Assembly: GCA_000002445.1 (NCBI GenBank)
Contig: CH464491.1
Span: 512,001 to 576,000, forward strand
Direction of reading: 5' to 3'
DNA: 64,000 nucleotides
Source: Trypanosoma brucei
Lineage: Eukaryota
Below, piece by piece: positions 7,040 through 63,557 of this stretch. The notes under the pieces were generated by a model that saw only the letters and a program-made list of their open reading frames with translations, made no database searches and was not told the origin of the DNA. Position 1 is the stretch's first letter; every line of letters begins with the position of its first letter. The position numbers and the translations under genes are program-made.

Positions 7040-7051
7040 CCCTTCAATCAC

Positions 7052-21258: not shown

Positions 21259-21474
21259 TCACGCCTTCTTAGCGGCGGCCTTCTTGCCGGCAACCTTCTT
21301 CGGGGCAACCTTTTTGGGAGCGGCCTTCTTGGCGACAGCTTTCTTGGGAGCAGCCTTCTTAGCGACAGCCTTCTTTGGAGCACCCTTCTTAGCGACAGCC
21401 TTCTTTGGAGCAGCCTTTTTGGGGGCTGCCTTCTTGGCCACAGCTTTCTTGGGAGCAGCAGATGCCTTCGCCAT
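21259..21474 (-). CDS. H1: histone H1 (copy D), 71 aa (one pentapeptide repeat fewer)
   Basis: MAKASAAPKK...[23 protein letters not shown]. It lacks the KKPLA repeat unit, so this unit has a 639-bp period against 655 bp for copy C. ATG at 21474. Confidence 0.85.
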   Translation of the reverse strand: MAKASAAPKKAVAKKAAPKKAAPKKAVAKKGAPKKAVAKKAAPKKAVAKKAAPKKVAPKKVAGKKAAAKKA

Positions 21475-21899
21475 ACTTCCGAGTGTTGATAAGATTGCGA
21501 CTTCTTCCACAGGGAGAAAGAGAAAAATGAAAGCAAAATAAAATGAATGTGAAAGAACATGAGAATACAATGAGTTTAGAGTAAATAAGCGGAAAGGAAA
21601 AAGACCTACAGTAATACTATTGGACCAAAACCATACACAGGCAGTTAAAATAGCCACACATCAGGATGATATGCTCTTTGCAACGCTACGACACCAACAC
21701 CGCATGGCGGTACATAAGACGCAACCCACAAATGAAAATATCCAATAAAAACGGTAGAAGGGAACTAAATAAGTAAGATAGGAAAAATCTAACTCCGTCC
21801 TGGAGGGACGCACGAGGACGTCCTGAAACGTGTGACAGCTTTCTCCCACACTCAGGTAAACCTCATAGCGTGTCTAATAGCGGGCAGCAGCGGATGCGC

Positions 21900-22130
21900 T
21901 CACGCCTTCTTAGCGGCGGCCTTCTTGCCGGCAACCTTCTTCGGGGCAACCTTTTTGGGAGCGGCCTTCTTGGCTAAAGGTTTCTTGGCAACAGCCTTTT
22001 TGGGAGCAGCCTTCTTAGCGACAGCCTTCTTTGGAGCAGCCTTCTTAGCGACAGCCTTCTTAGGAGCAGCCTTTTTGGGGGCTGCCTTCTTAGCCACAGC
22101 TTTCTTGGGGGCAGCAGTTGTCTTCGCCAT
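21900..22130 (-). CDS. H1: histone H1 (copy E), 76 aa, N-terminus MAKTTAAPKK
   Basis: Full ORF with ATG at 22130. The body is identical in style to copy A. The 5' flank is unique because this copy is at the array edge. Confidence 0.85.
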   Translation of the reverse strand: MAKTTAAPKKAVAKKAAPKKAAPKKAVAKKAAPKKAVAKKAAPKKAVAKKPLAKKAAPKKVAPKKVAGKKAAAKKA

Positions 22131-22371
22131 ATTTTATTTTCCTTTCTACTTTCCTATGAAATGTTTTGGTCGAGAAAATAGTTTGAATTAATTTAATTAG
22201 GGTAATGGAGTGTTGTTTATACACATATATCTCCTTCTCTATTTTTTTTCCTTCATTACAGCATTTGGGTTAAGTTTTTTTTGGTAGTGATCTTCCGGGA
22301 CAATCAGGTGAGGTGCCTAAATTTGTGGTCGACGGAAAATTACCAAAAGTGTCCTCTGACTGTTGCTTTGT

Positions 22372-27044: not shown

Positions 27045-30000
27045 TAGTCACTTATTTGAACACACATAACGATAACAATACAACCATAAGCATTCGTAAA
27101 AAAAAAACGAAAAATGTATAATGTAAGTGTGAAAACTGCGAAACAGACACAGCTCAGTGCCAGAAACAATAGCAAATACAAATTTGAGGCGGGGAGAGTA
27201 CCAACCTGTTCCTTGGACATGGCGAAACGGCCTCACATTACGAGACCAACTCCTTCCCTAAAATAAGAAAAGGAGGTAAATTTGTAAAAAGGAGATCGCC
27301 TATTTATTTTACATCTGGCGGACGTTTCAGACTACCCATCAAAACTACAAGCAAAAATCATATTCCTTCCTCAAAAAGGGGGGGATTAACCGCCCACCAA
27401 CCACCCTCCAGAGGTAAGGGGCAAGAGAATACCAAAAATAAAAGACATTAGGTAACTACGTGTAACACCAGATGGGTCAATAGCAATATCCCACAGCATT
27501 CATTCTTACCAGGATAAATGCACATACGCAGTCGCCTCCCTGTGTACAATTAAGGTAATTCAACAAAGAAAAAATGTTGAACCACAAAGACTGTCTTCAT
27601 CCATCAAGGTTTCTTCTGTTACCGCGGAAAAACGGTTTGAACAACTCCATCCCGATCCTCTAATACTTATGCATGCCTAGTAGAGGAGTCCTTCTCCTTC
27701 AAGTCCATTAAGACAAACCATACGTCCACAGAAGACCAGATATTGGAAACTGCAAAGGAGTAATTAGTGAACAGAGAAAACGGTCGTATATTCCTCAATT
27801 GTCAGTATGATCTCCAAAACAAATCACCGAAAACACCAGACAACCGTCAACAATGAGAAAAACAGGGGGAAAAATACACTGCGTAGTGGAGCCTCCCATT
27901 GCATTGACCAGTCCTTCGTTCACATCTATATTTCAAATGGTCCAACGCCAATTATACCTCATACCTAAACTAATGATGTACCCAACAATAAAGATGCGTA
28001 TTAATATTAAAGCTGGTTGTTGTTTTCATACGTTAAGCACGATAAAAGAAATATTAGTAACAATAGAAATAATAGATTCCATCAACAAATCAACTCACCT
28101 CTCACCACCAAAAAAAAAAAGTAGTAAGGAATGTAAGGCGAAGCTAATTGGTCGCAGTAAAAAAAACTCGGAGCAGTATTTTAAAAAAGGGGGGCAAGGA
28201 CAACGGAGGCAGTTGAGCACCAAGTATTCAGAGCTTTATCTCCCACTAACAACGGTAGGCTCCCACTAACACCGACGCCGTTTCCACCTGTTACGCCTAC
28301 GTGCAATATCCCCCTACCTGATGGGTGGCAGCAAATCCTACAGTGAATATGTTGAATTGACCGGGTGTAAAAACACTCAATATAGCAATTCGTAACCCGA
28401 CAACTTGGTTAAGGAGAAAAGTTTCTTTGAGGTACTTTTGGTTCAATGTCAAAACAAAAGCGAGGGGCAAAATAAAGAGTAGATTGCACAGGAATTTAAT
28501 TAACTTTTGCAAATAGAAAATACAATAGCTTCAAGTATTCTGAGTCCCTCTGATTGTCGACCTCTGAATATTTAAGGTAGTGGTCCATGCAACTGCACGA
28601 TACTATTTAGCACTCAATTAAACGATTGCTTTTTTTAAGTTTCTAACAATAGTATTATTTCAAGGATGATCCAGAGACGGAAACTTCTCTTGAAGCGGGT
28701 GTAATAATACTTAAAAGAGAGAAAAGGCACACTTTCACAGTAATAAAGTACGTTACATGTCGAAGGAGCTAGAAAAGAGCGATGAGCAAACATCAAGATA
28801 GGCAGCCCAGTACCCTGGCTCAACAACGTTTAAACAAAAAACAACAAAAACTGGTGATTCACAAAACATAATAACAATATATATGTCTAAATTTTGCGTT
28901 GTTACGGGAAAATAATGGCATCAGAGGTGACGTTGATGAAGTGTCACCCAAACAAGAACGCCGCCAGTGAATGCAGTACCTGCAAGGATTCGCAAGTGGC
29001 TCCAGGCGCCACAAAGCTAGCAGGTGAGAGAGACAGAAAATAAAACATCAATCCCCTGCGACCGCAACGGAGCGGCACAGCACCAAAAGGCCCAACATCG
29101 TCATGGTGGAAGAGACACTAAGCATCAGCACCCTTGTCGGAAGAATGAAACTACATTACCGGGCCAACCATCAGCGGCCCGCTTTAAAGCGCAGCGCACC
29201 AACGAGCTTCTGGGAGAGAGAAACACCGCGGGCTATATGGGTGACGGCACCAAAGTGTCACGACAAGCGGGGGGCGTCGACTTTCCAGATGGGCAGCGAC
29301 AGCATCGACCCGAGCCGGACAACACCATTCGCGAGGTGGTGCGGAACATGGGAAGCCCTCCCCATCTCCACCGAGGAGCCTTGCCCTGGAGGAGACACTC
29401 AGACAAGGTAAGACACACCTCTCCCCAGAAAGCCTTCTCTTAATATATTTAAATACCATGTAGCCGACACGTCCGACCCGAGAGGCAATTCGGGCCGTCC
29501 TCTCACATCCGCAACGGCGCGAGGGCACGTGAGGGGCTAACAGCCCTACACACATTGGGAAGAGTGGCGGCCTCTCTCGTGCTTGCACCGGGTGTTCACC
29601 ATGCCATGACACCAGTCTCCTTTTCCCAACACACCTCAACATGGGAAGAGGAGGGCCGGAGACTCTGAGCGACGCGTACTGACGTCCAGTTCCTAGAATG
29701 GCCAACAACGTACGCAATCCCGTTCGGCGTACCCACATCCAATGTCGTCCACGCCAAATGGTATCAACCAAAGGGTCGGCGAGGTATCGAACTGGGCCCC
29801 ATCCGCGAGCCCAGCAACCACAACACTTTGAAAGTGCTTGATACCACCGCTGGCGCCACAGAAGTGAGGACAGCTCTATTGACATAATGAAGATCATCAT
29901 TCTCACGGGAAAAAATCAGGTTGGCCGCGCGTATCAGCAAAGAGACAATCCGAAAGTTTTCTAAGGAAGGTGGGCAACGCGAATGGCAACACATACCCAG

Positions 30001-33000
30001 TCGTGCGTGGTGCCGGATAGGGTGGAAAAAAAAAAAGAACCCCCCCCCCGGGAGTCGAGAGGTCGCCCCTGACGACAGACGAGAAACATTTCTTATGCCC
30101 GGCTGGCACCACCGAAGGACCCAGGGGGGAAAGAAGGATGGTCGCCCCGGCGGTGCCAGCACAGGGTAGCCACTCGGGACAACAAAGCAAACCTCGGTAA
30201 ACAGAACAATAGGGTATCGAAACTGGTCGTGGCAGAAGAGCGTTTTAAACGCTGCGACAACTGCTCGCAACCCACTAGGCGGCGTCAACCCCCAGCGCTC
30301 GTTACTCTCGGGCTTCCGCGGGCCGAGGGGCGACAAGGACGAGCTGCGGCCGGAAGGTAACAAACAATGCCAACGAAACAGCGCGACGCATGGAAGATGA
30401 AAGTACTGGAGGTCAAGGGTTGCTTACTCGGGGCGTTTTATGGGCCCAACGGAAAGGCTACAATATGGGCGCTGCTTGGTGAATCGGAGATTTGTGGGGG
30501 CAGCACGTACTCGAGTAGCTGAAATATACGAACTGCAGCGAGAAGTAATATGTATTTAACCCGTTCAATTGAACCCTGTAATGCAGAAAAACACTGCGCT
30601 ACTGAAAGCAGAGCTCCATCACAACGTTACCGGTGGAAACAAACTGGATATCGACATTTCACCATTTTCAAAGTTATCGGAACGGATGGTCGCCAGTAGG
30701 TTCTGTGGTACCGTGGACCAACCGTCATGGGCGTAACAAGCCGAGTTAACACGAACGCCTCGAACAGTAGGCAGCATAGCGCAACTTTTTCGGACCTGAG
30801 TTTCTCTAGAAATATCACCAGGCGCCGCTGCTGTATTCACGCACCGTCCCCGAGCACTTGTATCAGTGAATCAAAGCCGCGCCATCCACGCATCGGAAAG
30901 ACTCCCCGTGGACTCATAGTCACTCGATGGATTAGCAATTCTCCAAGCAGAGTGGTGTGAGCCAGAGTGTGCACACTTCCGGGGGCTACCGCTAATACTG
31001 GGACCGCCGCAGGGACCAACGTTGGGCCTCATTCTGTTCAACCCTTGGAACAGTGGTAAATGTCTCGTCCCAGGGTTCAGCACCATGAGGGGACTCTGTT
31101 CCACTACATGACTTACCCTAGTGATGCAGAATACTTCAACGTAGTACCAGAGACCTCTGACACGTTTTTTCGCGTGAGACCAATAATCTTAAGGGGTGCA
31201 GACCTGTGGAACACTGTTTTGGCCGATCCGCTCGGTCGACCATACGGCATGGGGTCCGCCAACCCCGTTGCGGGATATCGCTTCTCTACGTTGTTCCCCT
31301 GACAGGTGCTAGTATTCCGGCAAAAGCATAACTTCAAGTAAGACAGCGGTCTTATTACACAGCATCCTGCAGTGTTGTTTCCTAGTTGCCCCGGTTTTTC
31401 GTATTTCTCACGAAGGTAAAAAGAAAATCTCTAACTTTTTTTTTGTTAATCAAAACGGCAGACGAAGTGAACATGGCACTTAACAGCGTGCAAGGGACCT
31501 GGCGCCACTTCGTTGTCGGTGATCTAAGTCTGGAGGTGATGGAGAAACAATAAGTACGGTGAAGCTGCAGCGTGGGCCACAAAAGGGTGGAAACAGTGAT
31601 GTAACCGTTGGCAGGGCGGTTGTAGGTCCTGCGCTGAATGAGATTTTGTTTGCTTCAAGCGTGGTGAAACATTCAAACCCAAAACACATAGGAGTCACAA
31701 ATGTCAGGTACCAGAAGTCTTCAAGAACTAATAGCGGTTTTAAACCAGGTAAGTAGGGTTATTGCTATTAGGCGTCAAGTAATGTAGGAGATGCCCACTA
31801 CCAGGGCACAAAAGAGAAAGAGCATCCGGAACACATTCCCAGCGCGACGACAACAAACGCAAATAAGCACTAGGGCAAAGAATTGCACCACTGGGTCTGA
31901 AAAGAAGCAGAGGACATGATGATAGGATGCGCACCGGCGACCCGAGCGCCAGAGTGCTTGTAAAAGGAATGTCACGCTTACCGAAAAGGTAAATTGCACA
32001 AACCTGTTTCCTCGGTACAAAACTGAAGAATCGGAAAGGTAGTGCGCTAACGCGGGGAATGGAAAGCACTTATACATTCGCCACTAAATGAACGGGGAAG
32101 GAGTAAACCCCCACATTCTTCACGGCACCCCAATATATTGGTAAATGCGTCCAGTTTCTATGATCCTGTTGGTATCGTCTTCCCAGGGTGACTCGACGAA
32201 GGGTTTGCAGAACTCAGGTTTCAAAAGTGCGGTGCCTACGCGCCGGAAGAACCCCAACCCTGGCAGAAACGACGGATGTCTGGGGGTTGGCGAGAAAATG
32301 CGCCTTATTCTGTGAACGCTTAAGAGCGGAACAAAGAAGTGTAGGCTTCCACTACAACTGGCGGTTATAGTATGGAGCAAAAAAAAGTTATAGTGAGTCG
32401 AATCCGCAGCACGATGTAAAGTTTTCGATCGAGGGGAGGGGTTAAATTAAAACGCAATCCCACAAGTCCACATAGCTGGAAAGGGGTCAGATTAAATCCC
32501 ATAAGCTACGATGCAACTAGTTTGGTCACTAGTTTTGCAGCCACATCGGCATTACGGCACTGAAGCAGTGGGAACAGCTACTGAATTTAGAGGCAACCCA
32601 CTATGCACTATCGCGAACGACGGCCAGCAACAGAAAAAAAAATGAAGCAAATCTGGGGGGAGGGAGAAGAGAAAGTTTAGCGCCAGATCTGAAAGGATGG
32701 CCTCATAACACGTGCTGTTATGATTTGAATTGGCCTCTTGTGTCTGAGATATCTCGTTGTGTTATCCAAAAGTTTGTTTGAGGTAAGGGAACCTGGGCAA
32801 TCCACAACGGACAGTTCAGCAAAACAGAGAGGGGAAATCAATGGAAGATAATTCAAGGAGGAGAAAGAAGAATCAAAGGTGTAACTGAAACTGGATCCCA
32901 AGAATGAACTTACGAGAAGTTGCAACGCGTCGAAGGTTCCCGGGCTGGTGGACAGCTCCTGTAACACACGCGGTGCGCGGGTTATATAAAACCAACAGTA

Positions 33001-35006
33001 CGCTCTTGGAGGTTGCCCGACGAACATGAAGAAGGGTTAAAGGCCTGTTTGGAAACCCATCGGCTTCCAAATTTGTACGGAACGTGTCAGTCGTATCGGT
33101 CTGACAGTGGACCCGACAAATGGGATGCACCGATAAGAGGGTAAACGCCCATACATATTAAAACTAGGATGTAAAAGGCTTTTCGGCTACATGTTAGGAT
33201 GGGACACCTTGAATCAGGAGGGGTAAGAAATCAGAATCTTCTTTTGACACTCCTTGGGGTGGTGTGGCACGTAAACTAGAAACTGTAACTGGGCAATTGA
33301 GGGTTCTATACGGGGAAAAGAGGTGCCACACTTGTTCCCTCATCTCAATTAAAAGCTTTTCCACTTCTATTACGGCCAGCACTACCCTCGCCCGCCCCAA
33401 TGGTTGAAATGGCGCCACCTCAGCCGGGGAACTCGGCTCTCTTCGAAGTGTCGCATTCTTTTTCCTCCGCTTGTCCATACAATACCTACTCGCAAGCTGG
33501 TGAAAATTAAGCCGCCAAGTCCCTCTCAACGGTATGCGCATAATCCGTGCCTGGCAAAATCAACTATTCTGAAACACTGTCTGTAGACACAAAGGGCGGT
33601 TAAGGCGCTCATTTTCATCTTCCATTTACTCTTCCTCCATCACACAATCAAACAAAAAACTTTCTCATTTTAGTGACAATGCCATTCGAACGGCGTCTTC
33701 GAGTATGCCAAAGCGGACCCATGTGCCCTACTCGGGCCGCAACGCCAGCAGCGCGTTATGGCCTTTACCAAGGGTTTACTGGGGAGTATAGTCGTTTCTC
33801 CATATTCCTGCATCATAGTTCCCTCTGGTTGTATTTCCCACTTTCTTTCTATAATCCTTCTGCGTTGGTTGACGAATGGATGTGTTACGTGGGCAGTTGC
33901 TCCATCACTGCGAAATGGTAGAAGGTGGGGGTGATAAACCTTGAGGTGTCGGGTGAAAGCAACCCTTTTCCACGTTCTGTACCGCCACATTCTGTATTCG
34001 GGTGCGCCAACCGCCGGCTTGAGTGCTTTTTCGTCCACATTGGCAGAAACGGGGTGCAGGTTGCAGAGTCCTTTTATTTATTTATTTTTGTGGGTGCCAT
34101 ACTTTTCAAGACTTCTCAAACAATTTCCTCTGCAATGCCGTCAGCCGCCTATTCGAGGTGAGTTTATCTTAAGGGAAATGAGGCGCATGACAACGTTGTT
34201 TTTTTTTCCACTTTACCCACAGCGAGGGCCTTCGCAGGGGCCGACGCATTGCCTGCGACAAAATGCCCAACTTTTGATATGCTTCGTTTCTTGTTGGGGA
34301 AAGATTTCAGTGCGAGCTTCGTTTGAAGAGCGAAAACAATTATGTATCTACGCTTTAAAGGGCATTTGATCAAAAGAAAATACCTTTCCACAGAGTTTCT
34401 CGTTGTCGTTAGTGTGTCCGATGTTCCGGTTAAGGTTAACAACTGGAGTGTGGATGTTTCCCGCAACGCGAAGCATTTTCACTTGGTAGTGGAAGCGGTG
34501 GCGTCGTCGGAACATGTCTTTTCGTGAGACTTTCGAGGTGTGATAAGGAGTTGTGTAGCGGTTCCGCGCCTATGCGAGTGTAAAGCCTGCAGGCTGTTTT
34601 CTTCCCGCCGCCGCGGTTTCCTGCTATGTTCAAGTGAGGTTGTCTCGTTCCGTTCGAATGTTGTTGTGGAGTTCACCCCTGGTGACCGGCGTTCCCTTTA
34701 GGCAGTGCAATTCACCTTAGTTATCTGACTACTAGCCTTATTTTGCTCTGTTATTTAAATATATATTTGATTGCCGTTACAATCTGACACTGTGCTGAGG
34801 AAGGTAATTGGGAGACATCTATGATAAAGTTCGCTTGTGTATTGAAAGGATGCAAGCTCCATTACAAAATAGGTAATGTGTTTTATTTTAACTGGTCGCT
34901 CGAGGCATGCTATCTCGTGCTTTAAATATTTTCTCAGCCTTATTTTTTCTAGTGTTCAACACCTGAAGTTGTTGCTGCTACTTTTCGTCGGAAGGAAGGC
35001 GTGGGT
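27045..35006. promoter_or_regulatory. divergent strand-switch region (putative bidirectional RNA pol II transcription start zone), ~8 kb, gene-free, with GC-rich core ~28900-31350
   Basis: Coding strand changes from minus (all genes <=27044) to plus (all genes >=35007). No ORF here has a recognisable family or a plausible trans-splice context. Plus-strand composition shifts from A/C-rich (27.0-28.9 kb) through a GC-rich block to T/G-rich (31.4-35.0 kb). An A11-C10 homopolymer lies at 30026-30049. Confidence 0.6.
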
Positions 35007-44211: not shown

Positions 44212-46093
44212 GCACCCTGAAAAGAATGAAAGAAAATTAATTAAATAGCAAGAAGGAAGGAATGAAGGTCATCACTGTCGTATAATTGTTTATACGTGGG
44301 TGCGAGGGGCGCTTCAGGGGAAGGAAGGGAAGAAAAATACACGAACATGTGAGACGGTAGTTGACGCAATAAGGCAAGAAGGTGAAGCACATTGGAAACT
44401 ACAGCGAGAGGTCATGCGGCTGGTGCTCGTATATACGGGACGGGGAAGGGAAAGAAGTGCGTATGTTTCCTTAGGTGTCGTGCCATGGAAACTTGTGGAG
44501 CAGAAGGAAAGAAGTATAAGGGAGGGGGGAGGAACTGTTATCAAGCGTAACGAAAGGATTATCGGAGGTAACTGAAGGTATGAGGTAGATTGAAGCCCAC
44601 AAACGAGCTTACTGAGCAGAGAGGAATCAAGTGGAGTAGGAAAGGAAGACGGACATGTATTATTCAGATAAATCCGAGGGGCTCGGTGTGGGATGCGTTG
44701 TGCTGGGACGAGCAAGAGATTTAGGTGGCTCGAACTTAGTGTTGACAAGCGAAGGCAGCACGTAATCTCGTGCGTGTGTGTGTTATGCGGTACAGGGGGG
44801 AAGGCATGTATAGGAAAACTCTCTAGTCCACTTGAAGAGGAGACGGTTAACAGAGTACGAGGGTGTTCCGCAGATGGTGGTGGCAGCAATACCCGAAAAA
44901 ACTTTACACGTATGAATCTGCCGCGGCTGGTGTCTTTGGGGAATTGAACACACGTCTCCTTCGTGTTCTCTGCCACTCATTCATCTATGCAGGCACGGGT
45001 AATCGGGGGGAAGGTGTGCTTCGCTCTGCAAGCCGTGATTTTTTCTTCCACTTCTTGCTAATTACTTCTTTCATTGCTGTTTTCGTTGTTTTAAGCCCGA
45101 CATTTCCTCCCTCCTGGATCCGAAGAGAAAAAAAAATTCCCCAGTAAATGCGGGTCCGAGCAGCGGAGCTTCCTGCCTTCCCTGTGAGTAAATGGCGAGG
45201 TGGTCGTACACGCGGAGATGGAACTAGAAAGTGGGTGTGACGAGAAAGGGAATGTTATAGCGGGATGCTGTGAGTTTTACATGCGCAAGGAAATGAGCTG
45301 AATGACGACCTTGCGAATCAGCAAACAGAAACGGAAGGCAGCGAGTGAGGATTGAAGTGAACTCCTGTTTGGCTGTTGTTTGCGTGTGGTTAATGTACGA
45401 GGGCCCCTTCCTTTTTTTTTAAACATCTGTTGAGGGTTCCGCTGCTGTTGCCGATTGCTTTTCCTTTCTTTGCCTCCAGCTCACCACTTCCGAGGCAGTT
45501 CTTTTGGTGTCAGACCCTTCCCGCTCAGTGGCCCCATCTCCGTAGCTCACTGCAGTACTCGTTTGCACGCGTTGCTGCGGTTGATCTCATATATATATAT
45601 ATACTTTTTAAAACCTTTTTTGTATTCCCTACTATTTCTTTCGCCTTCTGGGCCCCACAAGGAGTACATGCGCCGCCGGGGTAACGAGCTCAAGTAACCA
45701 AAAGCAACACACCAGGGAACGAAGGTGTATGCGGGAGGGGACGCCTTGTCGGTGTGACCCTCCCCACAGTTCCCCTTTCTTTTGTGATGTCTTTCCACTT
45801 GCCTTTGGTGCTCTTGATGGGAGATTGGAAAGTACCTAAAGTCGCTCTTCTCTCTTTTGTGAATGATCTGTCTTTACTTTTCTCACATACGTATTTTTTT
45901 TTACGTGGCCTTTTGGCATTTATTGTGTGAGCGGGTGCCAAGTGAAGAGCAATCTTTCTCGGAACCAATCACCGTCATTGTCATCGAAGCCTGCTGAGCG
46001 TGTAAACAATATCTAAAGGAAGAGGGATATCAGACTACTAAGGTTAACTTTTTGTACAAGTGAGGACCGCCCTGCGGCAGTAAGGTAGTTGCC

Positions 46094-56034: not shown

Positions 56035-58290
56035 ATGAAGCTGAGGGCTGACTCCCGTGGGGGTGGGGAGCAGGATATCAGGGCCAGCTTCGGCCACTCT
56101 ACCCCACGTGACACTGGTGAGAGTCCATCTATTCAACCCGTGGAAGGCCCGATCCCCCTAAATTTCCAATACGACCCGAAAGTCACATCATTAGAGGGAG
56201 CGCTGCTCTTTGTTGGCCGCACCTCCTCTGCGAACGTGAATAGTGTCAACCAAAAGCATCTTCACGGTAACTCCGGTGTTGCAATCCCGAATTCACCGGA
56301 GCTGGTTGGAGGAAACCAGCCGCTTGCGTCCGCTCGTTCATCGGTGGCTGACAATTCTGATCAAAGCAGCGGTAAGAAAAAGAGTGCCGTCGGTACGGGA
56401 TCTATAGGTGGCCGTCACCACGATCCAAACGCACCAGCAGCGAAAATCATAGTTAACGAGACGCAGGGGAGAACGTTGAATAAACCAAAGAGTGCCGCTG
56501 CCGACATCGTGAACGAGACTCCCCACGCTGAGGGCACTGGTGTGAAGAGTGCTTTTTGGGCTGTAGCGAAAAATGTAAGTGATAGAACTCCACTGAGCGG
56601 TCAGTCAAAGCCCCCACCTCGAAAAAATAGCAACGACGGCAGCCCAACCCCGGACCATGCGGGTGACGAGCCTATAGACGTGCGGGCGTGCAACTTTAAG
56701 TTCAAAATCATCCGAGAATTGGGTGGTGGAGGCTTTGGAAAGGTGTATCAGGCAATACTGGGTGACGGTAGGTTTGTAGCGGTTAAGAAGATGAAGATAA
56801 CATCCCACGATAAGGTGATCGACAGAGAGGTCCGCGTGCTGAGCACGCTTCCGCCGCACAAACACTGTGTCCGTTACCTTGGCTCGAAGAGGAGCAGTAA
56901 TCACTATTACATTTTCATGGAATACGTCAGTGGGGGTAGTATCCGTTACATTCGTAAAAGTGCTGGGGTGTTTGAGGAACCAGTGATGCGGCGCTGTGTG
57001 AAGATGGTTTTAGAGGGTCTTCAACACATTCACAGACACGACATCGTTCACCGCGATATCAAAGGGGAAAATGTTCTGCTTGACGAGAAAGGTTGCGTAA
57101 AAATTGTTGATTTCGGCGCATGCAAGGTTTTGAATAGCGGCCACAATACTGTGGGTAGTGTTGGCACACCGTATTGGATGTCCCCGGAGGTCTGCCGTGG
57201 GGAAGCGGCTACGGAGAAATCAGACGTATGGGGTGTGGGGTGCCTCTGTCTTGAGATGACAAATGAGTCGGGCATACCGTGGGAGTTCCATTCGACTGCC
57301 AACAATACGCAAGCTGTTCTCTATTCCATCGCGGCAGCAAAGAACCCTCCCAAAATCCCTCAACATCTTTCCCCAGCCGCTCGCGACTTCATTGCTTGCA
57401 CTCTGAGGGTCGACCCGAAGGATCGCCCTACTGTGGATAAGTTGTTGCAGCATCCCTTCTTTTCGCAAAGCTATTCCGCTGCGCAACCTGTTGAACGTGA
57501 AGCGGTGATGTCGAGGGTGGAGAGCTTCGACTTCGTCAACACTATTTCAACTCTTTCTCAACCGGGAGATGCAGCAAGTACCGGCAGCAAACCACCTGTC
57601 GTGAACATCGGACCCGTAATGATTAGCACAGGTTGTAAGACTGTGGCGCCGAGTAAAGACAAGGAGAAATCTCAGTCGCCGACCTATCAACTCAAGGCAG
57701 CAAGCAGCGACGACGATGATGATTACTGCAGGGTGCGTAATGTTATTAGACCTCAGGGAAATCTTGAACGGTATCCCCCGCCAGGTACCCCCGGAGATGA
57801 AGGTATCATCGGGAAGCGCAAGAAATCTGTTATTGCGACCCCCTCTCGCGTGGGTAAAGATGAGGTTAAGGAGATGCTAGAGGTGACCCCGGCACCACAA
57901 GCACGTGCGACTGGAGTGGGGCCCCCTGCTGATGTTCGTGTGTCGCCCCTTCCCAATCCAAGCAGCAGTAGCCCGGTGAGGGTGGTGAGGGCTCAGCCGC
58001 CTCCACGGCAGAGGCGAAGCACCGAAGCGTCTAATCCTTCTTCAACACGTGTAAGTTCTTCCTTAACTTCTGGAAAACCTGCCGGTGACCCCCCTGTGAC
58101 GAATTCGCTTGCCGAAGGAACAGCTAAGCGGAAAAAGACCAATGAGTCTGGCAAGTCGGCATCCGAACCCGGGCACAACGACGGCCGCCCAAGTAAGGAT
58201 AATCCTGGGCGCTCAAATAGTTCTGCGTGGTGGCGGCCCAAACAGGGATCTGACACCAACAAATCGGTGATCAAGTGGTTGATCAAATAA
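56035..58290 (+). CDS. serine/threonine protein kinase (STE/MAP3K-like)
   Basis: Kinase subdomains: G-loop LGGGGFGKVYQA, VAVKKM, HRHDIVHRDIKGENVLL, DFGACK, GTPYWMSPEV, DVWGVGC. Long S/P-rich N- and C-terminal extensions. The track ORF starts at TTG 56020; the first ATG is at 56035. Confidence 0.8.
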   Translation: MKLRADSRGGGEQDIRASFGHSTPRDTGESPSIQPVEGPIPLNFQYDPKVTSLEGALLFVGRTSSANVNSVNQKHLHGNSGVAIPNSPELVGGNQPLASARSSVADNSDQSSGKKKSAVGTGSIGGRHHDPNAPAAKIIVNETQGRTLNKPKSAAADIVNETPHAEGTGVKSAFWAVAKNVSDRTPLSGQSKPPPRKNSNDGSPTPDHAGDEPIDVRACNFKFKIIRELGGGGFGKVYQAILGDGRFVAVKKMKITSHDKVIDREVRVLSTLPPHKHCVRYLGSKRSSNHYYIFMEYVSGGSIRYIRKSAGVFEEPVMRRCVKMVLEGLQHIHRHDIVHRDIKGENVLLDEKGCVKIVDFGACKVLNSGHNTVGSVGTPYWMSPEVCRGEAATEKSDVWGVGCLCLEMTNESGIPWEFHSTANNTQAVLYSIAAAKNPPKIPQHLSPAARDFIACTLRVDPKDRPTVDKLLQHPFFSQSYSAAQPVEREAVMSRVESFDFVNTISTLSQPGDAASTGSKPPVVNIGPVMISTGCKTVAPSKDKEKSQSPTYQLKAASSDDDDDYCRVRNVIRPQGNLERYPPPGTPGDEGIIGKRKKSVIATPSRVGKDEVKEMLEVTPAPQARATGVGPPADVRVSPLPNPSSSSPVRVVRAQPPPRQRRSTEASNPSSTRVSSSLTSGKPAGDPPVTNSLAEGTAKRKKTNESGKSASEPGHNDGRPSKDNPGRSNSSAWWRPKQGSDTNKSVIKWLIK

Positions 58291-59081
58291 AATGCGACAT
58301 GGACTCAAGTTACTTGCCTGAGGTTTATTAATTTTAATTTACCTCGAAAGCGCCGTATATTCAGGCCTCTTTGTTTTATTCTCTCGTACCCCCCTAGCAC
58401 CTGCCAACCGCCTGTGGCGAGACTTGGATGTACGCAGTGCGTATGCGTGTATATGCTTGCTATTGCTGCACCCATGTGGGAGCGTACTTTTTTTGACATT
58501 TTGGCGTGTGGTCATACGCCCTTTCGACTATCAAAAAGTGAGAAATCGTAGCCGAGGGCAGTGTGGTTCCCCGAGCTCAGCCCACAGCGGGAATGTTTGG
58601 GTACAATGTATACATATATCTGTATATATATATACATATATGCATATACATTGTGTTCATGCAGGCTTTTAATATATGTTTGTAGTGATGGTATATTCTA
58701 TGTTCTTTAGTACATATACGGTGGTTAGTGCTAACTATACGTCCAAAAGCAGGCGTATTTTTCTCCCTACCCTGTTTTCTTTTCTTTTTCTTGCTCGTGG
58801 CGGTGAAGACATTGTGTTATTCCCCCTGCAACCTCTCAGGTAGTAGTTGCAGCGATGCCACCACCACCTTTGCCAAGCTGATACGGCGGTTCATTCATCG
58901 GAACAAAAAAGACTGAAAAAAGGGCAAGTTCATTTGGTGTCTGATGGAACTTGTTGATAATTATGGTTAACCATCACTCATTGCCGATGCCACATATCTT
59001 TTTTTAAGATTCAATTCCTTCTCTTTCTTCTCTTTCTAAACTATTCTGTGCGAACTGCAGGCTCCGTTGTAACAAACAGTT

Positions 59082-60056
59082 ATGCCATCCGTTTCCCAGG
59101 AGAAACGTGACTATGAGGATCGCCTCAACGGCTGCCTCACGAAGTACAGCCGTGTGCTCTTCTGCCTGATGGACAATGTTCGCTCGCAGCAGGTGCACGG
59201 TGTACGCCGTGATCTCCGCGGTAAGGGTGAGCTGGTGATGGGAAAGAAGACGTTGCAGAAGAAGATCGTGGAGAAGCGCGCTGAGGGCAACAAGGCCACA
59301 GATGCTGATAAGCTGTTCCACCAGGTTTGCACCGATAAGCAGCTTCTGTGTGGCAACACATCGATGATATTCACGAACAGCGAAGTGTCTGATATCACCA
59401 GCGTGTTGGACAGCCACCGTGTTCAGGCGCCTGCGCGTGTTGGTGCCATTGCCCCATGTGATGTTATTGTGCCCGCCGGTAACACGGGTATGGAGCCGAA
59501 GGCAACGGCGTTCTTCCAAGCGTTGAACATCGCGACGAAGATTTCCAAGGGTACTGTGGAGATTGTGAGCGACAAGAAGGTACTGAGCACTGGTGACAAG
59601 GTGGATAACTCCACGGCGACGCTGCTGCAGAAGCTCGACATCTCACCTTTCTATTACCAGGTCGAGGTGCAATCCGTGTGGGACCGCGGTGTGCTGTTTA
59701 CCCGTGAAGATCTCTCCGTCACCGATGCGGTTGTGGAGAAGTACCTCCTCGAAGGAATCAGCAACATCAGCGCTATGTCACTGGGTGCTGGTATCCCAAC
59801 TGCCGCTACACTGCCGCACATGATTGTCGACGCCTTCAAGACTCTTCTCGGCGCCTCCGTTGCCACGAATTACGAGTTTGAGGAATACGACGGAAAGAAC
59901 CTGCGCACAGCCGCCTTGGAGGGTAAACTCGGTGGTGGCGAAGCTGCTGCCCCCGCCGCTGCCGCTGCTGCCGCCGCCCCCGCCGCCGCTCCCGCTGCCG
60001 CCGCAGCTGAGGAGGAGGAGGATGATGATGACTTTGGCATGGGTGCTCTCTTCTAG
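59082..60056 (+). CDS. RPLP0: 60S acidic ribosomal protein P0 (copy 1)
   Basis: 324 aa. Conserved P0/uL10 N-terminal domain ([47 protein letters not shown]...) with an Ala/Pro-rich hinge and the acidic stalk tail [15 protein letters not shown]. Stop codon TAG. Confidence 0.9.
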
Positions 60057-60313
60057 TGATTTGAATGGAGTCTTCACTTATTTTTCTTATTTTTCATTTT
60101 CTCGTTGCTATGCGTCCATAGTTAATTGAATGTTTTGGTTTCATTCGTTTGTTGCAGACAGCCAAACCAACAGAAACGTTTGTGAACCAGTTTTTCGTAT
60201 TTGAAACGTTCTATTTTTCTTTTTCTTCTGTTGTTCTCCTCCCATCATAATCGCAAAATTTAAATTCCGTCTGAGCCGGAGAGAGCCGGATTGACCTACT
60301 ATAAAACGTAGTT

Positions 60314-61288
60314 ATGCCATCCGTTTCCCAGGAGAAACGTGACTATGAGGATCGCCTCAACGGCTGCCTCACGAAGTACAGCCGTGTGCTCTTCTGCCTG
60401 ATGGACAATGTTCGCTCGCAGCAGGTGCACGGTGTACGCCGTGATCTCCGCGGTAAGGGTGAGCTGGTGATGGGAAAGAAGACGTTGCAGAAGAAGATCG
60501 TGGAGAAGCGCGCTGAGGGCAACAAGGCCACAGATGCTGATAAGCTGTTCCACCAGGTTTGCACCGATAAGCAGCTTCTGTGTGGCAACACATCGATGAT
60601 ATTCACGAACAGCGAAGTGTCTGATATCACCAGCGTGTTGGACAGCCACCGTGTTCAGGCGCCTGCGCGTGTTGGTGCCATTGCCCCATGTGATGTTATT
60701 GTGCCCGCCGGTAACACGGGTATGGAGCCGAAGGCAACGGCGTTCTTCCAAGCGTTGAACATCGCGACGAAGATTTCCAAGGGTACTGTGGAGATTGTGA
60801 GCGACAAGAAGGTACTGAGCACTGGTGACAAGGTGGATAACTCCACGGCGACGCTGCTGCAGAAGCTCGACATCTCACCTTTCTATTACCAGGTCGAGGT
60901 GCAATCCGTGTGGGACCGCGGTGTGCTGTTTACCCGTGAAGATCTCTCCGTCACCGATGCGGTTGTGGAGAAGTACCTCCTCGAAGGAATCAGCAACATC
61001 AGCGCTATGTCACTGGGTGCTGGTATCCCAACTGCCGCTACACTGCCGCACATGATTGTCGACGCCTTCAAGACTCTTCTCGGCGCCTCCGTTGCCACGA
61101 ATTACGAGTTTGAGGAATACGACGGAAAGAACCTGCGCACAGCCGCCTTGGAGGGTAAACTCGGTGGTGGCGAAGCTGCTGCCCCCGCCGCTGCCGCTGC
61201 TGCCGCCGCCCCCGCCGCCGCTCCCGCTGCCGCCGCAGCTGAGGAGGAGGAGGATGATGATGACTTTGGCATGGGTGCTCTCTTCTAA
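60314..61288 (+). CDS. RPLP0: 60S acidic ribosomal protein P0 (copy 2)
   Basis: Protein identical to copy 1; the nucleotide sequence appears identical across the CDS. Stop codon TAA, and the flanks are unrelated to those of copy 1. Confidence 0.9.
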
Positions 61289-61650
61289 GCACGATGTTTT
61301 ACCTGATGGTCTCCGGCATCCATTCTTTTTTACTTTGTTCTTTTTTTTTTTGCCTTGGTGGTGATCAATACCTTGGTAGACTGAAATGTTCTGCAGTGTT
61401 GTTGCACCTGTTCGTGGTTTAGCGATGGTTAACCACTAGTTGGTGTTTTTGTGCGTGTGTTGAAACCTATTGACAGGCCTCTCTCTTCCGTTTACTTCAC
61501 TTTTCTTTTTTTGCTAACAACTTCCAACCCCCTATCGACCCCCAACAACTACTATATTTTTAAACTTAAGTATGTTCGTGTGTGTGGTAAACGGAAGGAA
61601 CTGACATCCGTTTGAACTACCCCTGCACCTTTGAAAGGCTCTGTTCCACA

Positions 61651-62055
61651 ATGGTGCGCTCGCTTGTTGTGTTGCTGACTTATGATGAACCAGAATGTGG
61701 TGGTGCAGCCGACGCACTTGTTGTTCACCTTCAACGGGACTGCGCAGCACTCGCGGATAGATGTCAGTTATCGGCTCGGCCAATATCTATTCTCCAGAAT
61801 TCTTCCCACCGTGACGCACTGTACAGGACACTGCAGGACCTTATTCAAGTGAAACCGCAAGATATTTACGCTATCAGTTTTTTAAAAGACAACAACCCTG
61901 ATGAATACCGCAAAATCCGAGAACTTTGCAACGGTGTCAAGCCACGACGTATCAAGCACCAGATACTTACACACCTCGCGAACTACAATGATGTGGGGCT
62001 CATTATAAGAAACCTTGTGCGGCTAGTGTTGGATGAGATGTCCCGTGACGTATGA
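61651..62055 (+). CDS. hypothetical small protein
   Basis: The track ORF starts at TTG 61612; the first ATG is at 61651 (MVRSLVVLL). 134 aa with no recognisable domain. Confidence 0.35.
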   Translation: MVRSLVVLLTYDEPECGGAADALVVHLQRDCAALADRCQLSARPISILQNSSHRDALYRTLQDLIQVKPQDIYAISFLKDNNPDEYRKIRELCNGVKPRRIKHQILTHLANYNDVGLIIRNLVRLVLDEMSRDV

Positions 62056-62420
62056 TGGCTCTGTGTGTTGTTTGTAGTGTGCGAGTTTGTGGGAGGGGAG
62101 GCAGGGTACGCTGTGGCCAAGTTGGAGGCGGTGACGCCAAATGAGTGCCTCGGGATGTTTGTACTGACTGGGGCACAGACAGAAGTATGGTTCATGCGTG
62201 TTGGTTATCCTTGTGACTATGTGGACGGGGCTCATTAAGACACAGGGCCTTTGTTGCGCTTTTATGAGTTGGTTGCTGAGTGGGCGTATGAATATACACA
62301 TAATGCACACATGCTTATATTCAAACTCTCTTTCTTGTTCTTCAGTTTTCTCCGCTTTCGGTTTTTTGCCTGTCTTTATATGTACCGCTGCTTGTTCACT
62401 CCAAATCCTGTATGTTGGCA

Positions 62421-62448
62421 CGCGCGCACACACACACACACACACACA
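62421..62448. repeat. (CG)3(CA)11 microsatellite
   Basis: cgcgcgcacacacacacacacacacaca read directly, in the intergenic region. Confidence 0.8.
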
Positions 62449-62567
62449 GAAAAACACATAGTTGCTTGCTTTGTTGTTACGCTTGACTGAACTGCTATTC
62501 ATGTATGCTTCCCAGTTTCTATTTCATCCCCGTTGTGTGTTAGTTTGTTGTCGGCGGGGAGTTTGTT

Positions 62568-63557
62568 ATGAATGATTGGATTACTAAGGCTTTGGAGGAG
62601 AAGCAGATCTTATCTCTTCCATCTCTTGCAGATGTAAAAGGGGTCTTCTGTGTGGCACGGGAGCATGAGTGGTATGATGATTGTGTTGTGATGGACTGGA
62701 CGGCCCTGCACCGTGGACTCCGGCCGAGTACCTCCTCATTTAATCCCACTGTTGCAGTGGCTGAGGTAATGCGTTTTGGATGTGAGTTGGAGGGGGATGG
62801 AAGTCTGGCGACAGCGTTGGAATTGCGCACCCCGTGGTGCGTGGTGCCACTCGCCGAGCAGGCGCAGCGACTCAGTGTTTTTTTACATCCATCTGGTGCG
62901 AATGTTAAGCCATACATGTTTTGCCGTGGACCACCTGGGCAGCGTAGCGTTCGTGATGACCTTCACTCTGTCCTTCAAGGGGTTCAGCGGCAGCTGCGGG
63001 ACTCGGGCATCAGGTGTCATGTGTTCTTTGGAAGTGTCATCGTGGTGTCAGATGACTTTGAGCATTTGATGCACCTCACGGCGGCGGTGTATCGGGCGCT
63101 GAAGAGTGCCGGCATCGAGTTAAACGCAAATGCCTCGTCATTTGAGCCGAGACGAGTCTTTAGGACTGCTGGTGGTTTGTGTTGGAATACATTGAGCCCC
63201 ATATCTTTGAAGAGTGTTGATAACATGGCTGCGCTTCTAGTTGATTTGTTTTACATGTGGTTGGGAGACTTCTACCTGTGGTTGTGTGTAACACCACCGG
63301 AATCGTTGCTGGGTGTGGCCGGGAGGGACGAGGACAAAATGAAGGTGTTTCGTGACTTCATTGTGAAGAGGGTGGTGCCGAACTGCGAATGTATTGAGTT
63401 TAACGGTTTAGCTGACGTGGACGTGGAGGAACTGCTTACAGCTGCTAAGCCCCTCCTGAAACGGAAACTACCACTTGTTGGACCGCAGAAGTGGAGTGCA
63501 CTTGAGTTGCGATTGTGCCTTGCGGCTTTGAAAGCTTACGAGCACCCGCCCCCGTGA
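62568..63557 (+). CDS. hypothetical protein
   Basis: 329-aa ORF with ATG at 62568 and a polypyrimidine tract upstream. No recognisable domain. Confidence 0.45.
   Translation: MNDWITKALEEKQILSLPSLADVKGVFCVAREHEWYDDCVVMDWTALHRGLRPSTSSFNPTVAVAEVMRFGCELEGDGSLATALELRTPWCVVPLAEQAQRLSVFLHPSGANVKPYMFCRGPPGQRSVRDDLHSVLQGVQRQLRDSGIRCHVFFGSVIVVSDDFEHLMHLTAAVYRALKSAGIELNANASSFEPRRVFRTAGGLCWNTLSPISLKSVDNMAALLVDLFYMWLGDFYLWLCVTPPESLLGVAGRDEDKMKVFRDFIVKRVVPNCECIEFNGLADVDVEELLTAAKPLLKRKLPLVGPQKWSALELRLCLAALKAYEHPPP

What the first reader, a model, noticed from the sequence alone, without database searches (positions are those of the whole stretch)
59077..61288. Ribosomal P0 tandem pair: identity restricted exactly to the CDS, with different stop codons (TAG vs TAA) and unrelated UTRs
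The two P0 genes encode identical proteins and appear nucleotide-identical across ~980 bp, starting ~5 nt before the ATG and ending at the second base of the stop codon. Upstream sequences (58980-59076 vs 60200-60308) and downstream sequences are unrelated.

This is a clean example of conversion tracts bounded by the ORF, with presumably selection for distinct UTR-mediated regulation. The stop-codon third base marks the tract boundary.
Basis: seen in the sequence. Interest (0 to 1): 0.5.

Follow-up and report, generated by a model that had tools for sequence, protein, structure and literature searches.

The report
Tandem P0 genes homogenised by conversion
Two neighbouring copies of the ribosomal stalk protein P0 gene in Trypanosoma brucei are kept identical across their coding sequence by repeated copying of one onto the other, while their old, unrelated flanks stay distinct; this is real but is an ordinary, already described pattern for trypanosomatid ribosomal-protein genes.

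Summary
Window 59078-60055 and 60310-61287 are 100% identical over 978 nt. Identity starts 4 nt (not about 5) before each ATG and ends at the second base of the stop codon (TAG vs TAA). The flanks are no more alike than shuffled sequence.

The protein equals T. b. brucei TREU927 P0 (EAN79177.1/EAN79178.1, probably Tb927.11.2050/2060), so both genes are already annotated.

The syntenic two-copy arrangement (kinase, P0, P0, small gene) occurs in all nine complete trypanosomatid loci fetched. Copies within a genome are 99.6-100% identical; between species they are 76-91% identical. At fourfold-degenerate sites 0 of 175 differ within the pair, against 49-57% between species.

Among three T. brucei-group genomes, all four informative CDS sites group by genome, not by copy. 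Only the stop codon's third base is copy-specific. Sister genomes carry 1-3 internal differences, so perfect identity is a transient state.

This is concerted evolution by non-crossover gene conversion, confined to the block where homology survives. Copy A's 5' leader is shared with other Trypanosoma species, so the flanks are ancient. Selection for copy-specific UTR regulation is untested here.

The pattern is already published (Jackson 2007; Borges 2024). Interest is low.

The parts
59082..60056 (+). P0/uL10 gene copy A (324 aa, stop TAG); probably Tb927.11.2050
   Evidence: ORF. Pfam Ribosomal_L10 + RL10P_insert + Ribosomal_60s. Exact match to TREU927 EAN79177.1/EAN79178.1. The gene ID is inferred from PMC4783070 and PMC3894213.
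60314..61288 (+). P0/uL10 gene copy B (324 aa, stop TAA); probably Tb927.11.2060
   Evidence: ORF, with the same protein as copy A. PMC3493610 lists Tb927.11.2060 as ribosomal protein P0.
59078..60055 (+). Homology (conversion) block, copy A: 978 nt 100% identical to 60310-61287
   Evidence: Exact extension; repeat family D2/D4.
60310..61287 (+). Homology (conversion) block, copy B
60056..60056 (+). Third base of the copy A stop codon (G; A at 61288 in copy B). It is the first copy-specific site and is fixed in three T. brucei-group genomes.
   Evidence: Column 978 in the six-way table.
59015..59037 (+). Polypyrimidine tract upstream of copy A (predicted trans-splicing signal)
   Evidence: Pattern scan. 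Its function is inferred from general knowledge of trypanosomatid mRNA processing.
59059..59081 (+). Predicted spliced-leader acceptor AG (59059-59060) plus the 21-nt 'A-type' 5' leader GCTCCGTTGTAACAAACAGTT
   Evidence: It is the first AG after the polyY tract. The leader aligns with T. cruzi A, T. grayi, T. vivax and an unnamed Trypanosoma, with 13 invariant columns (alignment A1); z = 3.5-4.4 against T. cruzi A. I counted 16/21 identical to T. cruzi A by hand from alignment A1.
60057..60313 (+). 257-nt intergenic spacer: copy A 3' UTR, polyadenylation region, polyY tract (60214-60243), candidate acceptor AGs (60274-60285) and copy B 5' leader
   Evidence: Only 3/257 differences from T. b. 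gambiense. No Rfam family.
60064..60070 (+). AATGGAG, 7 nt after the copy A stop; the same heptamer lies at the same offset after the T. cruzi copy A stop
   Evidence: Alignment A3. First-45-nt scores of 15 against T. cruzi A and 14 against T. grayi A, versus -2 against T. cruzi B. Suggestive only.
61289..61480 (+). Copy B 3' flank (3' UTR region), containing GGTCTCCGG at 61308-61316, which resembles motifs in the B-type flanks of T. cruzi, T. theileri and T. melophagium
   Evidence: Alignment A4; z = 3.7-5.9 against T. cruzi B. Not significant in the permutation test.

Best explanation
This is the T. brucei chromosome 11 tandem pair of ribosomal stalk protein P0 (uL10) genes, lying inside a + strand polycistronic transcription unit. 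The duplication predates the divergence of Trypanosoma and Leishmania. Since then the two coding sequences have been homogenised repeatedly by non-crossover (interlocus) gene conversion. Repair of a break in one copy uses the neighbouring copy as template, so any new mutation is either erased or copied to both genes. Conversion needs homology on both sides of the break, so it can act only inside the block where the copies are still alike. The flanks escaped conversion long ago and have diverged beyond recognition. Purifying selection on the protein's conserved N and C termini keeps the block from eroding inward, so the block ends coincide with the CDS to within 4 nt at the 5' end and fall inside the stop codon at the 3' end. 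Shown here: identity, boundaries, antiquity, homogenised synonymous sites, and changes shared by both copies within a subspecies. Inferred: the molecular route (break repair without crossover) and the role of selection at the block ends. Each copy keeps its own splice-acceptor region, 5' leader and 3' UTR, which allows copy-specific post-transcriptional control but does not prove it.
For: (1) A 978-nt perfect repeat with chance-level flanks. (2) The same kinase - P0 - P0 - small-gene layout in T. b. gambiense, T. b. equiperdum, T. vivax, T. cruzi, T. theileri, T. melophagium, L. donovani, a second Leishmania assembly (L007) and, with the pair inverted, Leptomonas pyrrhocoris. Exactly two copies are present in every complete locus. 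(3) CDS nucleotide identity is 99.6-100% within genomes and 76-91% between species. (4) At fourfold-degenerate sites 0/175 differ within the T. brucei pair, against 49-57% between T. brucei and other species and 29% between T. theileri and T. melophagium. (5) In the six-way table of three T. brucei-group genomes, sites 438, 471, 801 and a 3-nt indel are shared by both copies of a genome and differ between genomes. No CDS site is copy-specific across genomes. The third base of the stop codon is copy-specific in all three. (6) Position-specific flank orthology: T. theileri A against T. melophagium A gives z = 13-15 and B against B gives z = 18-21, versus 2-4 for cross comparisons, while their CDSs are homogenised within species. 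(7) The A-type 5' leader is shared by T. brucei A, T. cruzi A, T. grayi and T. vivax. The B-type leader is shared by T. cruzi B, T. theileri and T. melophagium. (8) Block edges differ between lineages: 1, 4, 15, 30 or at least 57 nt upstream and 0-28 nt beyond the stop codon. That is expected for conversion end-points limited by local homology. (9) Differences between the copies of a pair lie nearer the block edges than expected (mean 155 vs 244 nt, P about 0.05). (10) GC3 is raised to 0.68, against 0.54-0.56 in neighbouring genes. Jackson 2007 associates raised GC3 with homogenised arrays, but translational selection could also cause it.
Against: No conversion event is observed directly; the mechanism is inferred from its products. 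The assemblies are haploid consensus sequences of diploid genomes, so some 'concerted' sites could be allelic variants sampled differently. In an older clone-based assembly, reads from a 978-nt perfect or near-perfect repeat could be misassigned, which might hide one or two real differences in this genome. Deep orthology of the T. brucei 3' flanks is only suggestive (label-flip test 6/64, and 12/64 once the close species pair is removed). The T. brucei B 5' leader matches the B-type leader only weakly. The edge-enrichment test rests on 7 sites.
Confidence: 0.85

Rival explanations
1. Conversion plus active selection for distinct UTRs. The two copies are kept with different 5' and 3' UTRs because each is regulated differently, for example by life-cycle stage or in dosage compensation. 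Conversions that spill into the UTRs are removed by selection.
For: The copy A 5' leader is about as conserved between T. brucei and T. cruzi (16/21 = 76%, my count from alignment A1) as the CDS (80%), and far more than fourfold sites (53% differ). The 3' flanks stay distinct beyond at most 28 nt in every species examined. In L. major, the tandem RPS16 paralogues with identical CDS and divergent UTRs are expressed at different levels and compensate for each other (PMC11098316).
Against: Three lineages have homogenised the 5' leader (A-type on both copies in T. vivax, B-type on both in T. theileri and T. melophagium), so distinct leaders are dispensable. Leader conservation shows constraint on each leader, not selection for the two to differ. 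No expression data for the two T. brucei copies were available. Homology-limited conversion explains the boundary without this extra assumption.
Confidence: 0.3
2. Homogenisation by unequal crossing-over between misaligned copies, as proposed for the 'invariant' arrays such as tubulin and histones, rather than by non-crossover conversion.
For: Jackson 2007 attributes fully invariant T. brucei arrays to unequal crossing-over.
Against: Unequal crossing-over in a two-copy array yields one-copy or three-copy products and homogenises spacers. Here copy number is exactly two in all nine complete loci. The spacer and outer flanks are unrelated to each other and position-specific.
Confidence: 0.05
3. 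Purifying selection alone (protein constraint plus codon-usage selection on a highly expressed gene) keeps two old copies identical without any sequence exchange.
For: P0 is highly conserved and GC3 is raised (0.68), which fits codon bias.
Against: At fourfold-degenerate sites 49-57% differ between species but 0/175 differ within the pair. Two substitutions and an indel that distinguish this genome from T. b. gambiense, and one more that is private to T. b. equiperdum, are each present in both copies of the genome concerned. Without exchange that would need parallel identical mutations.
Confidence: 0.03
4. A very recent, lineage-specific duplication of just the ORF, or an assembly artefact that duplicated or homogenised the gene.
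For: Perfect identity confined to the ORF is what a fresh copy would look like.
Against: The pair is syntenic across trypanosomatids, with leaders shared by position between species. Three independent T. brucei-group assemblies give the same boundaries and the same TAG/TAA pair.
Confidence: 0.02

Closest known systems
Concerted evolution of tandem gene arrays in T. brucei (Jackson 2007, BMC Evol Biol 7:54; PMC1855330)
   Same: Tandem duplicates inside polycistronic units cluster by species although the arrays are syntenic across species, and this is attributed to gene conversion. The paper describes arrays whose copies carry unrelated UTRs, and notes that less conserved regions can escape conversion and then diverge freely.
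   Different: That paper's main text does not mention the P0 pair (the only hit for 'ribosomal' is rDNA). In most of its invariant arrays the spacers are identical too, and it reports that conversion frequently affected UTRs. It also links remodelled flanks with copies that retain orthology. Here homogenisation continues although both flanks are unalignable.
Leishmania ribosomal-protein paralogue pairs with identical CDS and divergent UTRs, e.g. the L. major RPS16 tandem pair (Borges et al. 2024, PLoS One; PMC11098316)
   Same: [quoted passage not shown] The paper states this is the predominant situation for Leishmania ribosomal-protein genes. My L. donovani locus shows the same for P0 itself: 0 CDS differences, 1 nt of shared sequence upstream and 9 nt beyond the stop.
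   Different: That work addresses expression and compensation, not the evolutionary mechanism; 'gene conversion' does not occur in its text. It concerns a different gene and genus. No expression data exist here for the T. brucei copies.
Leishmania HSP70-I / HSP70-II genes and the acidic ribosomal protein gene arrays (Soto et al. 1993, cited in PMC11098316; PMC3185273)
   Same: Tandem genes of one family fall into classes that differ in their 3' UTR (PMC3185273 abstract). That the coding regions are the same and that regulation is class-specific is from memory, not tested here.
   Different: HSP70 arrays have several copies, and only the last one carries the alternative 3' UTR (from memory). 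Here there are exactly two copies, and both the 5' and 3' flanks differ.
Histone H1-like repeat clusters in the same window (4.7-6.0 kb and 20.3-22.2 kb)
   Same: Tandem duplicates in the same chromosome region that are kept similar (61-99% to the reference copy in register).
   Different: There the whole 641-657-nt unit, spacer included, is repeated. That is the whole-unit pattern, in contrast to the CDS-only block of the P0 pair.

Membership tests
Ribosomal stalk protein P0 / uL10 | N-terminal Ribosomal_L10 domain followed by the eukaryote/archaeal L10P insertion domain | tested here: met
   Pfam PF00466 (46.7 bits, cut-off 22.8) and PF17777 (83.6 bits, cut-off 29.1).
Ribosomal stalk protein P0 / uL10 | C-terminal 60S acidic stalk tail: Ala/Pro-rich hinge, acidic run and a terminal FGMG.LF-type motif | tested here: met
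   PF00428 (55.9 bits, cut-off 28.1). The translation ends ...[20 protein letters not shown].
Ribosomal stalk protein P0 / uL10 | Identity with an annotated P0 protein | tested here: met
   Exact sequence match to T. b. brucei TREU927 EAN79177.1/EAN79178.1, '60S acidic ribosomal subunit protein'.
Concerted evolution by interlocus gene conversion | Paralogues within a genome are more alike than orthologues between genomes | tested here: met
   99.6-100% within genomes versus 76-91% between species.
Concerted evolution by interlocus gene conversion | The duplication predates the speciations compared (conserved synteny and copy number) | tested here: met
   Two copies between the same neighbouring genes in nine complete loci from Trypanosoma, Leishmania and Leptomonas. 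Position-specific leaders and 3' flanks are shared across species.
Concerted evolution by interlocus gene conversion | Neutral (synonymous) sites are homogenised, not only constrained sites | tested here: met
   0/175 fourfold sites differ within the pair versus 49-57% between species.
Concerted evolution by interlocus gene conversion | Derived changes are shared by both copies in one lineage and absent from both in a sister lineage | tested here: met
   Columns 438, 471, 801 and the indel at 899-901 in the six-way table.
Concerted evolution by interlocus gene conversion | Direct detection of a conversion tract or event (mosaic copy, or experimental recombination assay) | not testable with these tools
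   Identical sequences leave no tract ends. This needs population resequencing or marked-copy experiments.
Whole-unit homogenised tandem array (unequal crossing-over type; Jackson's 'invariant' arrays) | Spacers and UTRs are identical between repeat units | tested here: not met
   The flanks are no more alike than shuffled sequence.
Whole-unit homogenised tandem array (unequal crossing-over type; Jackson's 'invariant' arrays) | Variable copy number between genomes | tested here: not met
   Two copies in all complete loci.
Trypanosomatid ribosomal-protein paralogue pair with identical CDS and divergent UTRs (as for L. major RPS16) | Identical or near-identical CDS with unalignable 5' and 3' UTRs | tested here: met
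Trypanosomatid ribosomal-protein paralogue pair with identical CDS and divergent UTRs (as for L. major RPS16) | Paralogue-specific expression level and mutual compensation | not testable with these tools
   No transcript or protein data were available. Reads mapping within the CDS cannot tell the copies apart.

The most novel reading that the evidence does not exclude
The two P0 copies have kept position-specific UTRs since before the Trypanosoma radiation because each UTR set carries its own regulatory function. The roughly 21-nt A-type leader (AG|GCTYC..GT.A....C.G..ATG), which is conserved about as well as the coding sequence, would then be a previously unrecognised cis-element of a ribosomal-protein mRNA. 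Selection, rather than mere loss of homology, would police the conversion boundary.
Probability: 0.25. Interest if true: 0.4.

Novelty: already known. Interest (0 to 1): 0.15.

Why it matters
It matters little beyond being a tidy textbook case. It shows, at single-base resolution and across nine genomes, how gene conversion can keep two genes identical for a very long time while their regulatory flanks evolve separately. There are two practical consequences. First, short reads within the CDS cannot be assigned to a copy, so copy-specific expression has to be measured from the UTRs. Second, knock-out or tagging of P0 in T. brucei must target both genes, and the unique flanks provide the handles for that. 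The conserved copy A leader is a small lead for anyone studying translational control of ribosomal-protein mRNAs in trypanosomes.

Tried and rejected
(1) Hidden flank similarity. Gapped local alignments of the upstream, spacer and downstream regions found only polypyrimidine runs, at the score of shuffles.

(2) An embedded non-coding RNA in the spacers. A permissive Rfam scan of 58000-62600 gave only sub-threshold hits (25-30 bits against cut-offs of 60-97) on the TA-rich palindrome at 58.6 kb, which I take as chance. No tRNAs were found.

(3) Exact-protein look-up of the window protein in the contig index returned nothing, although the cluster listing does hold it as TREU927. The window's own record could therefore not be fetched.

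(4) T. congolense, the best outgroup for UTR conservation, has no contig on record. I could only see that two consecutive accessions share one protein.

(5) Logan contigs of an unnamed Trypanosoma (L010-L015) are too short (at most 1129 nt) to resolve the two copies. They join an A-type leader to a B-like 3' flank, possibly through chimeric assembly across the identical CDS.

(6) Deep orthology of the T. brucei 3' flanks. The pairwise scores point the right way, but the label-flip test is not significant (6/64, and 12/64 without the close species pair), so I report it as suggestive only.

(7) The T. cruzi P0 cDNA paper (PMC2119278) is held only as abstract and references, so the splice-acceptor site could not be checked.

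(8) A literature search for copy-specific expression of Tb927.11.2050/2060 found only proteomic mentions.

(9) The apparent single-copy loci L003 and L005 are caused by N runs and are not real copy-number variation.

(10) The 355-aa T. vivax 'copy A' comes from a 1-nt frameshift at CDS position 852, probably an assembly error. With the corrected end (5688) the copy aligns fully with copy B.
Full report
**1. The observation**

The window holds two + strand ORFs of 324 aa, at 59082-60056 and 60314-61288, with identical translations. Extending the match base by base gives a perfect 978-nt repeat, 59078-60055 equal to 60310-61287, at an offset of 1232 nt (also repeat families). It ends at the second base of the stop codon, and the third base is G in copy A (TAG) and A in copy B (TAA).

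In register, the 20-300 nt on either side are 15-35% identical, which is chance level. Gapped local alignments of the upstream region, the 257-nt spacer and the downstream region find only polypyrimidine runs, with scores inside the range of shuffled sequence.

**2. What the genes are**

Pfam gives the complete P0/uL10 architecture: Ribosomal_L10, the L10P insertion domain and the acidic 60S stalk tail, all above the curated cut-offs. The protein ends in the usual [15 protein letters not shown].

The sequence is exactly that of T. b. brucei TREU927 '60S acidic ribosomal subunit protein', deposited under two consecutive accessions, EAN79177.1 and EAN79178.1. The ORF upstream is a protein kinase. 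Papers list Tb927.11.2040 as an STE11 kinase, Tb927.11.2050 as a putative ribosomal protein and Tb927.11.2060 as ribosomal protein P0. These are very probably the three genes seen here, but that assignment is an inference. Both genes are therefore already annotated in a reference genome.

**3. The arrangement is ancient**

I fetched the loci encoding the closest homologues. They come from T. b. gambiense (L001), T. b. equiperdum (L018), T. vivax (L002), T. cruzi (L004), T. theileri (L008), T. melophagium (L009), L. donovani (L006), a second Leishmania assembly (L007) and Leptomonas pyrrhocoris (L017). All carry two adjacent P0 genes between the same kinase and the same small (134-144 aa) gene. 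A tblastn count gives exactly two copies in every complete locus. Two loci that seemed to have one copy are interrupted by N runs. T. congolense also has two consecutive accessions for one identical protein. The simplest reading is that the pair was already present in the common ancestor of these genera.

**4. The coding sequences evolve in concert**

- CDS nucleotide identity is 99.6-100% between the two copies of a genome and 76-91% between species. The close pair T. theileri and T. melophagium is 91% identical between species but 99.9-100% within each.
- At fourfold-degenerate sites, 0 of 175 differ within the T. brucei pair. Between T. brucei and other species 49-57% differ, and between T. 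theileri and T. melophagium 29% differ. Constraint on the protein therefore cannot explain the identity.
- The most direct evidence is the six-way comparison of the three T. brucei-group genomes. Columns 438, 471, 801 and a 3-nt indel (one alanine codon) each have the same state in both copies of a genome and a different state in another genome.
- Four further sites (405, 621, 901, 942) are singletons in one copy of one genome.
- No site within the CDS is copy-specific across genomes. The one such site is the third base of the stop codon, G in copy A and A in copy B in all three genomes.

Sequence has therefore been exchanged between the copies across the CDS since these very close lineages separated, and the exchange has not crossed the stop codon. 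The perfect identity in this window is one state of a mutation-conversion cycle. T. b. gambiense currently has three internal differences between its copies and T. b. equiperdum has one.

**5. The flanks are old and position-specific**

- The clearest case is T. theileri against T. melophagium. For the 3' flanks, A against A gives z = 13-15 and B against B gives z = 18-21, while the cross comparisons give 2-4. Meanwhile their CDSs cluster by species.
- At the 5' end, T. brucei copy A shares a leader (AG|GCTYC..GT.A....C.G..ATG) with T. cruzi A, T. grayi, both T. vivax copies and an unnamed Trypanosoma from read assemblies. Thirteen columns are invariant (alignment A1), and z = 3.5-4.4 against T. 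cruzi A. By my count from that alignment, 16 of 21 leader positions are identical between T. brucei A and T. cruzi A. That is about the same as the CDS and far above fourfold sites.
- A different, B-type leader is shared by T. cruzi B and by both copies of T. theileri and T. melophagium. T. brucei B resembles it only weakly (alignment A2).
- For the T. brucei 3' flanks the signal is suggestive only. The first 45 nt after the stop of copy A score 15 and 14 against T. cruzi A and T. grayi A but -2 against T. cruzi B. However, a label-flip test over all species gives 6 of 64, and 12 of 64 without the close pair.
- In T. theileri the A and B flanks still resemble each other (88% over 100 nt upstream, 43% downstream). 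This suggests the original duplicated unit was larger than the CDS and that the flanks have since diverged.

**6. Where the block ends in other lineages**

| Species | Exact identity upstream of the ATG | Exact identity beyond the stop codon |
|---|---|---|
| T. brucei | 4 nt | none (ends at the second stop base) |
| T. cruzi | 1 nt | 0 nt |
| L. donovani | 1 nt | 9 nt |
| T. theileri | 15 nt (88% over 100 nt) | 3 nt |
| T. vivax | 30 nt (up to a TTTTTTCAG acceptor-like site) | 28 nt |
| T. melophagium | at least 57 nt | 2 nt |

In Leptomonas pyrrhocoris identity ends one base earlier than in T. brucei, at the third base of the last sense codon. Its copy 2 has thereby lost the stop and gained an 8-residue extension.

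The edge is therefore not a fixed feature of the gene. It sits wherever homology currently ends, usually at the limits of the selected coding sequence. T. vivax has spread the A-type leader to both copies, and T. theileri and T. melophagium have spread the B-type leader. This shows that conversion can run into the 5' UTR and that two different leaders are not required.

Differences between the copies of a pair tend to lie near the block ends, for example positions 16 and 960 of 972 in T. cruzi. The mean distance to an edge is 155 nt against 244 expected (P about 0.05, n = 7). That fits less efficient conversion near the ends of homology, but the test is weak.

**7. Mechanism**

The best-supported account is recurrent non-crossover gene conversion between the two copies. 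It is restricted to the homologous block, and purifying selection on the conserved protein termini stops that block from shrinking.

- Unequal crossing-over is unlikely. It would change copy number and homogenise spacers, and neither is seen.
- Purifying selection alone is contradicted by the synonymous-site and shared-change data.
- A recent duplication or an assembly artefact is contradicted by the synteny and by three independent assemblies.
- GC3 is 0.68 in P0 against 0.54-0.56 in the neighbouring genes. Jackson reported the same trend for homogenised arrays, but codon-usage selection on a highly expressed gene could equally explain it.

The molecular steps (a break in one copy, invasion of the other, synthesis, re-annealing) are inferred, not shown.

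**8. mRNA processing signals**

All functional assignments in this section are inferred from general knowledge of trypanosomatid mRNA processing.

- Copy A is preceded by a polypyrimidine tract at 59015-59037. The first AG after it is at 59059-59060, exactly where the conserved leader starts, which predicts a 21-nt 5' UTR.
- The 257-nt spacer must hold the copy A 3' UTR and poly(A) site, the tract at 60214-60243, acceptor AGs at 60274-60285 and the copy B leader.
- No Rfam family lies in these regions.

Each copy therefore makes an mRNA with the same ORF and different UTRs. Whether this is used for regulation is untested here. In L. major, the tandem RPS16 pair with identical CDS and divergent UTRs is expressed unequally and shows compensation (PMC11098316), so the idea is reasonable.

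**9. Comparison with what is known, and novelty**

Jackson's 2007 survey of T. brucei tandem arrays established concerted evolution and gene conversion as general forces. It described arrays whose copies have unrelated UTRs, and it noted that less conserved regions may escape conversion and diverge. Borges et al. 2024 state that most Leishmania ribosomal-protein genes are duplicated with predominantly divergent UTRs.

The P0 pair fits this known class. It does not fit the whole-unit type of array, in which spacers are identical; the histone H1-like clusters elsewhere in this window are of that type. I found no paper that dissects the T. brucei P0 pair itself. Even so, the genes are annotated and the phenomenon is established, so I rate this as already known, with low interest.

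What this analysis adds is detail: the boundary is stable to the base across T. brucei subspecies, leaders have been replaced in particular lineages, and copy A has a conserved leader.

Noticed in passing
window 4693-5970 and 20300-22218 (- strand): Two clusters (2 and 3 units, about 15 kb apart) of a 641-657-nt repeat unit. Each unit encodes an Ala/Lys/Pro-rich protein of about 80 aa ([10 protein letters not shown]...), which looks like trypanosome histone H1. The Pfam hit to HC2 (H1-like) is 34.4 bits, below the 40-bit cut-off. Unlike the P0 pair, the whole unit including the spacer is repeated (61-99% identity to the reference copy).
   Followed up: partly
window about 29900-35000: All long ORFs before about 29.9 kb are on the - strand and all long ORFs after about 35.0 kb are on the + strand, apart from one 220-aa ORF on the - strand at 44314-44976. 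GC skew changes sign at about 30 kb. This looks like a divergent strand-switch region between two polycistronic units. No tRNA genes were found anywhere in the window.
   Followed up: no
window 58603-58654: A TA-rich near-perfect palindrome (26-nt arms, 85% complementary, no gap between the arms) lies between the kinase gene and P0 copy A. It attracts only sub-threshold Rfam miRNA/RUF21 hits (25-30 bits), which I take as low-complexity chance matches.
   Followed up: partly
L017 (Leptomonas pyrrhocoris) 6001-8780: The P0 pair is on the opposite strand to all its syntenic neighbours (kinase, 144-aa gene, Vps16), so it appears inverted within its gene cluster. Identity between the copies ends at the third base of the last sense codon, and copy 2 reads GGLLLSKRNCAV instead of GGLF-stop, which alters the conserved C-terminal motif.
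   Followed up: partly
L002 (T. vivax) 4712-5779: Copy A is called as a 355-aa protein because one base is missing at CDS position 852 (GGCGGTGG becomes GGGGTGG). This is probably an assembly error. With that corrected, the two copies are identical from 30 nt upstream of the ATG to 28 nt past the stop.
   Followed up: yes
L010-L015 (Logan read assemblies SRR31578354, SRR33117282 and others): An unnamed Trypanosoma whose P0 protein is 85% identical to that of T. brucei. The short contigs join an A-type 5' leader to a B-like 3' flank, with polymorphic sites at CDS positions 627 and 960. This could be chimeric assembly across identical copies or a genuinely different arrangement.
   Followed up: no
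window 60054-60056, compared with all other loci: The TAG stop of T. brucei copy A is unusual. Both copies use TAA in T. vivax, T. cruzi, T. theileri, T. melophagium and Leishmania. Only Leptomonas copy 1 also uses TAG.
   Followed up: partly
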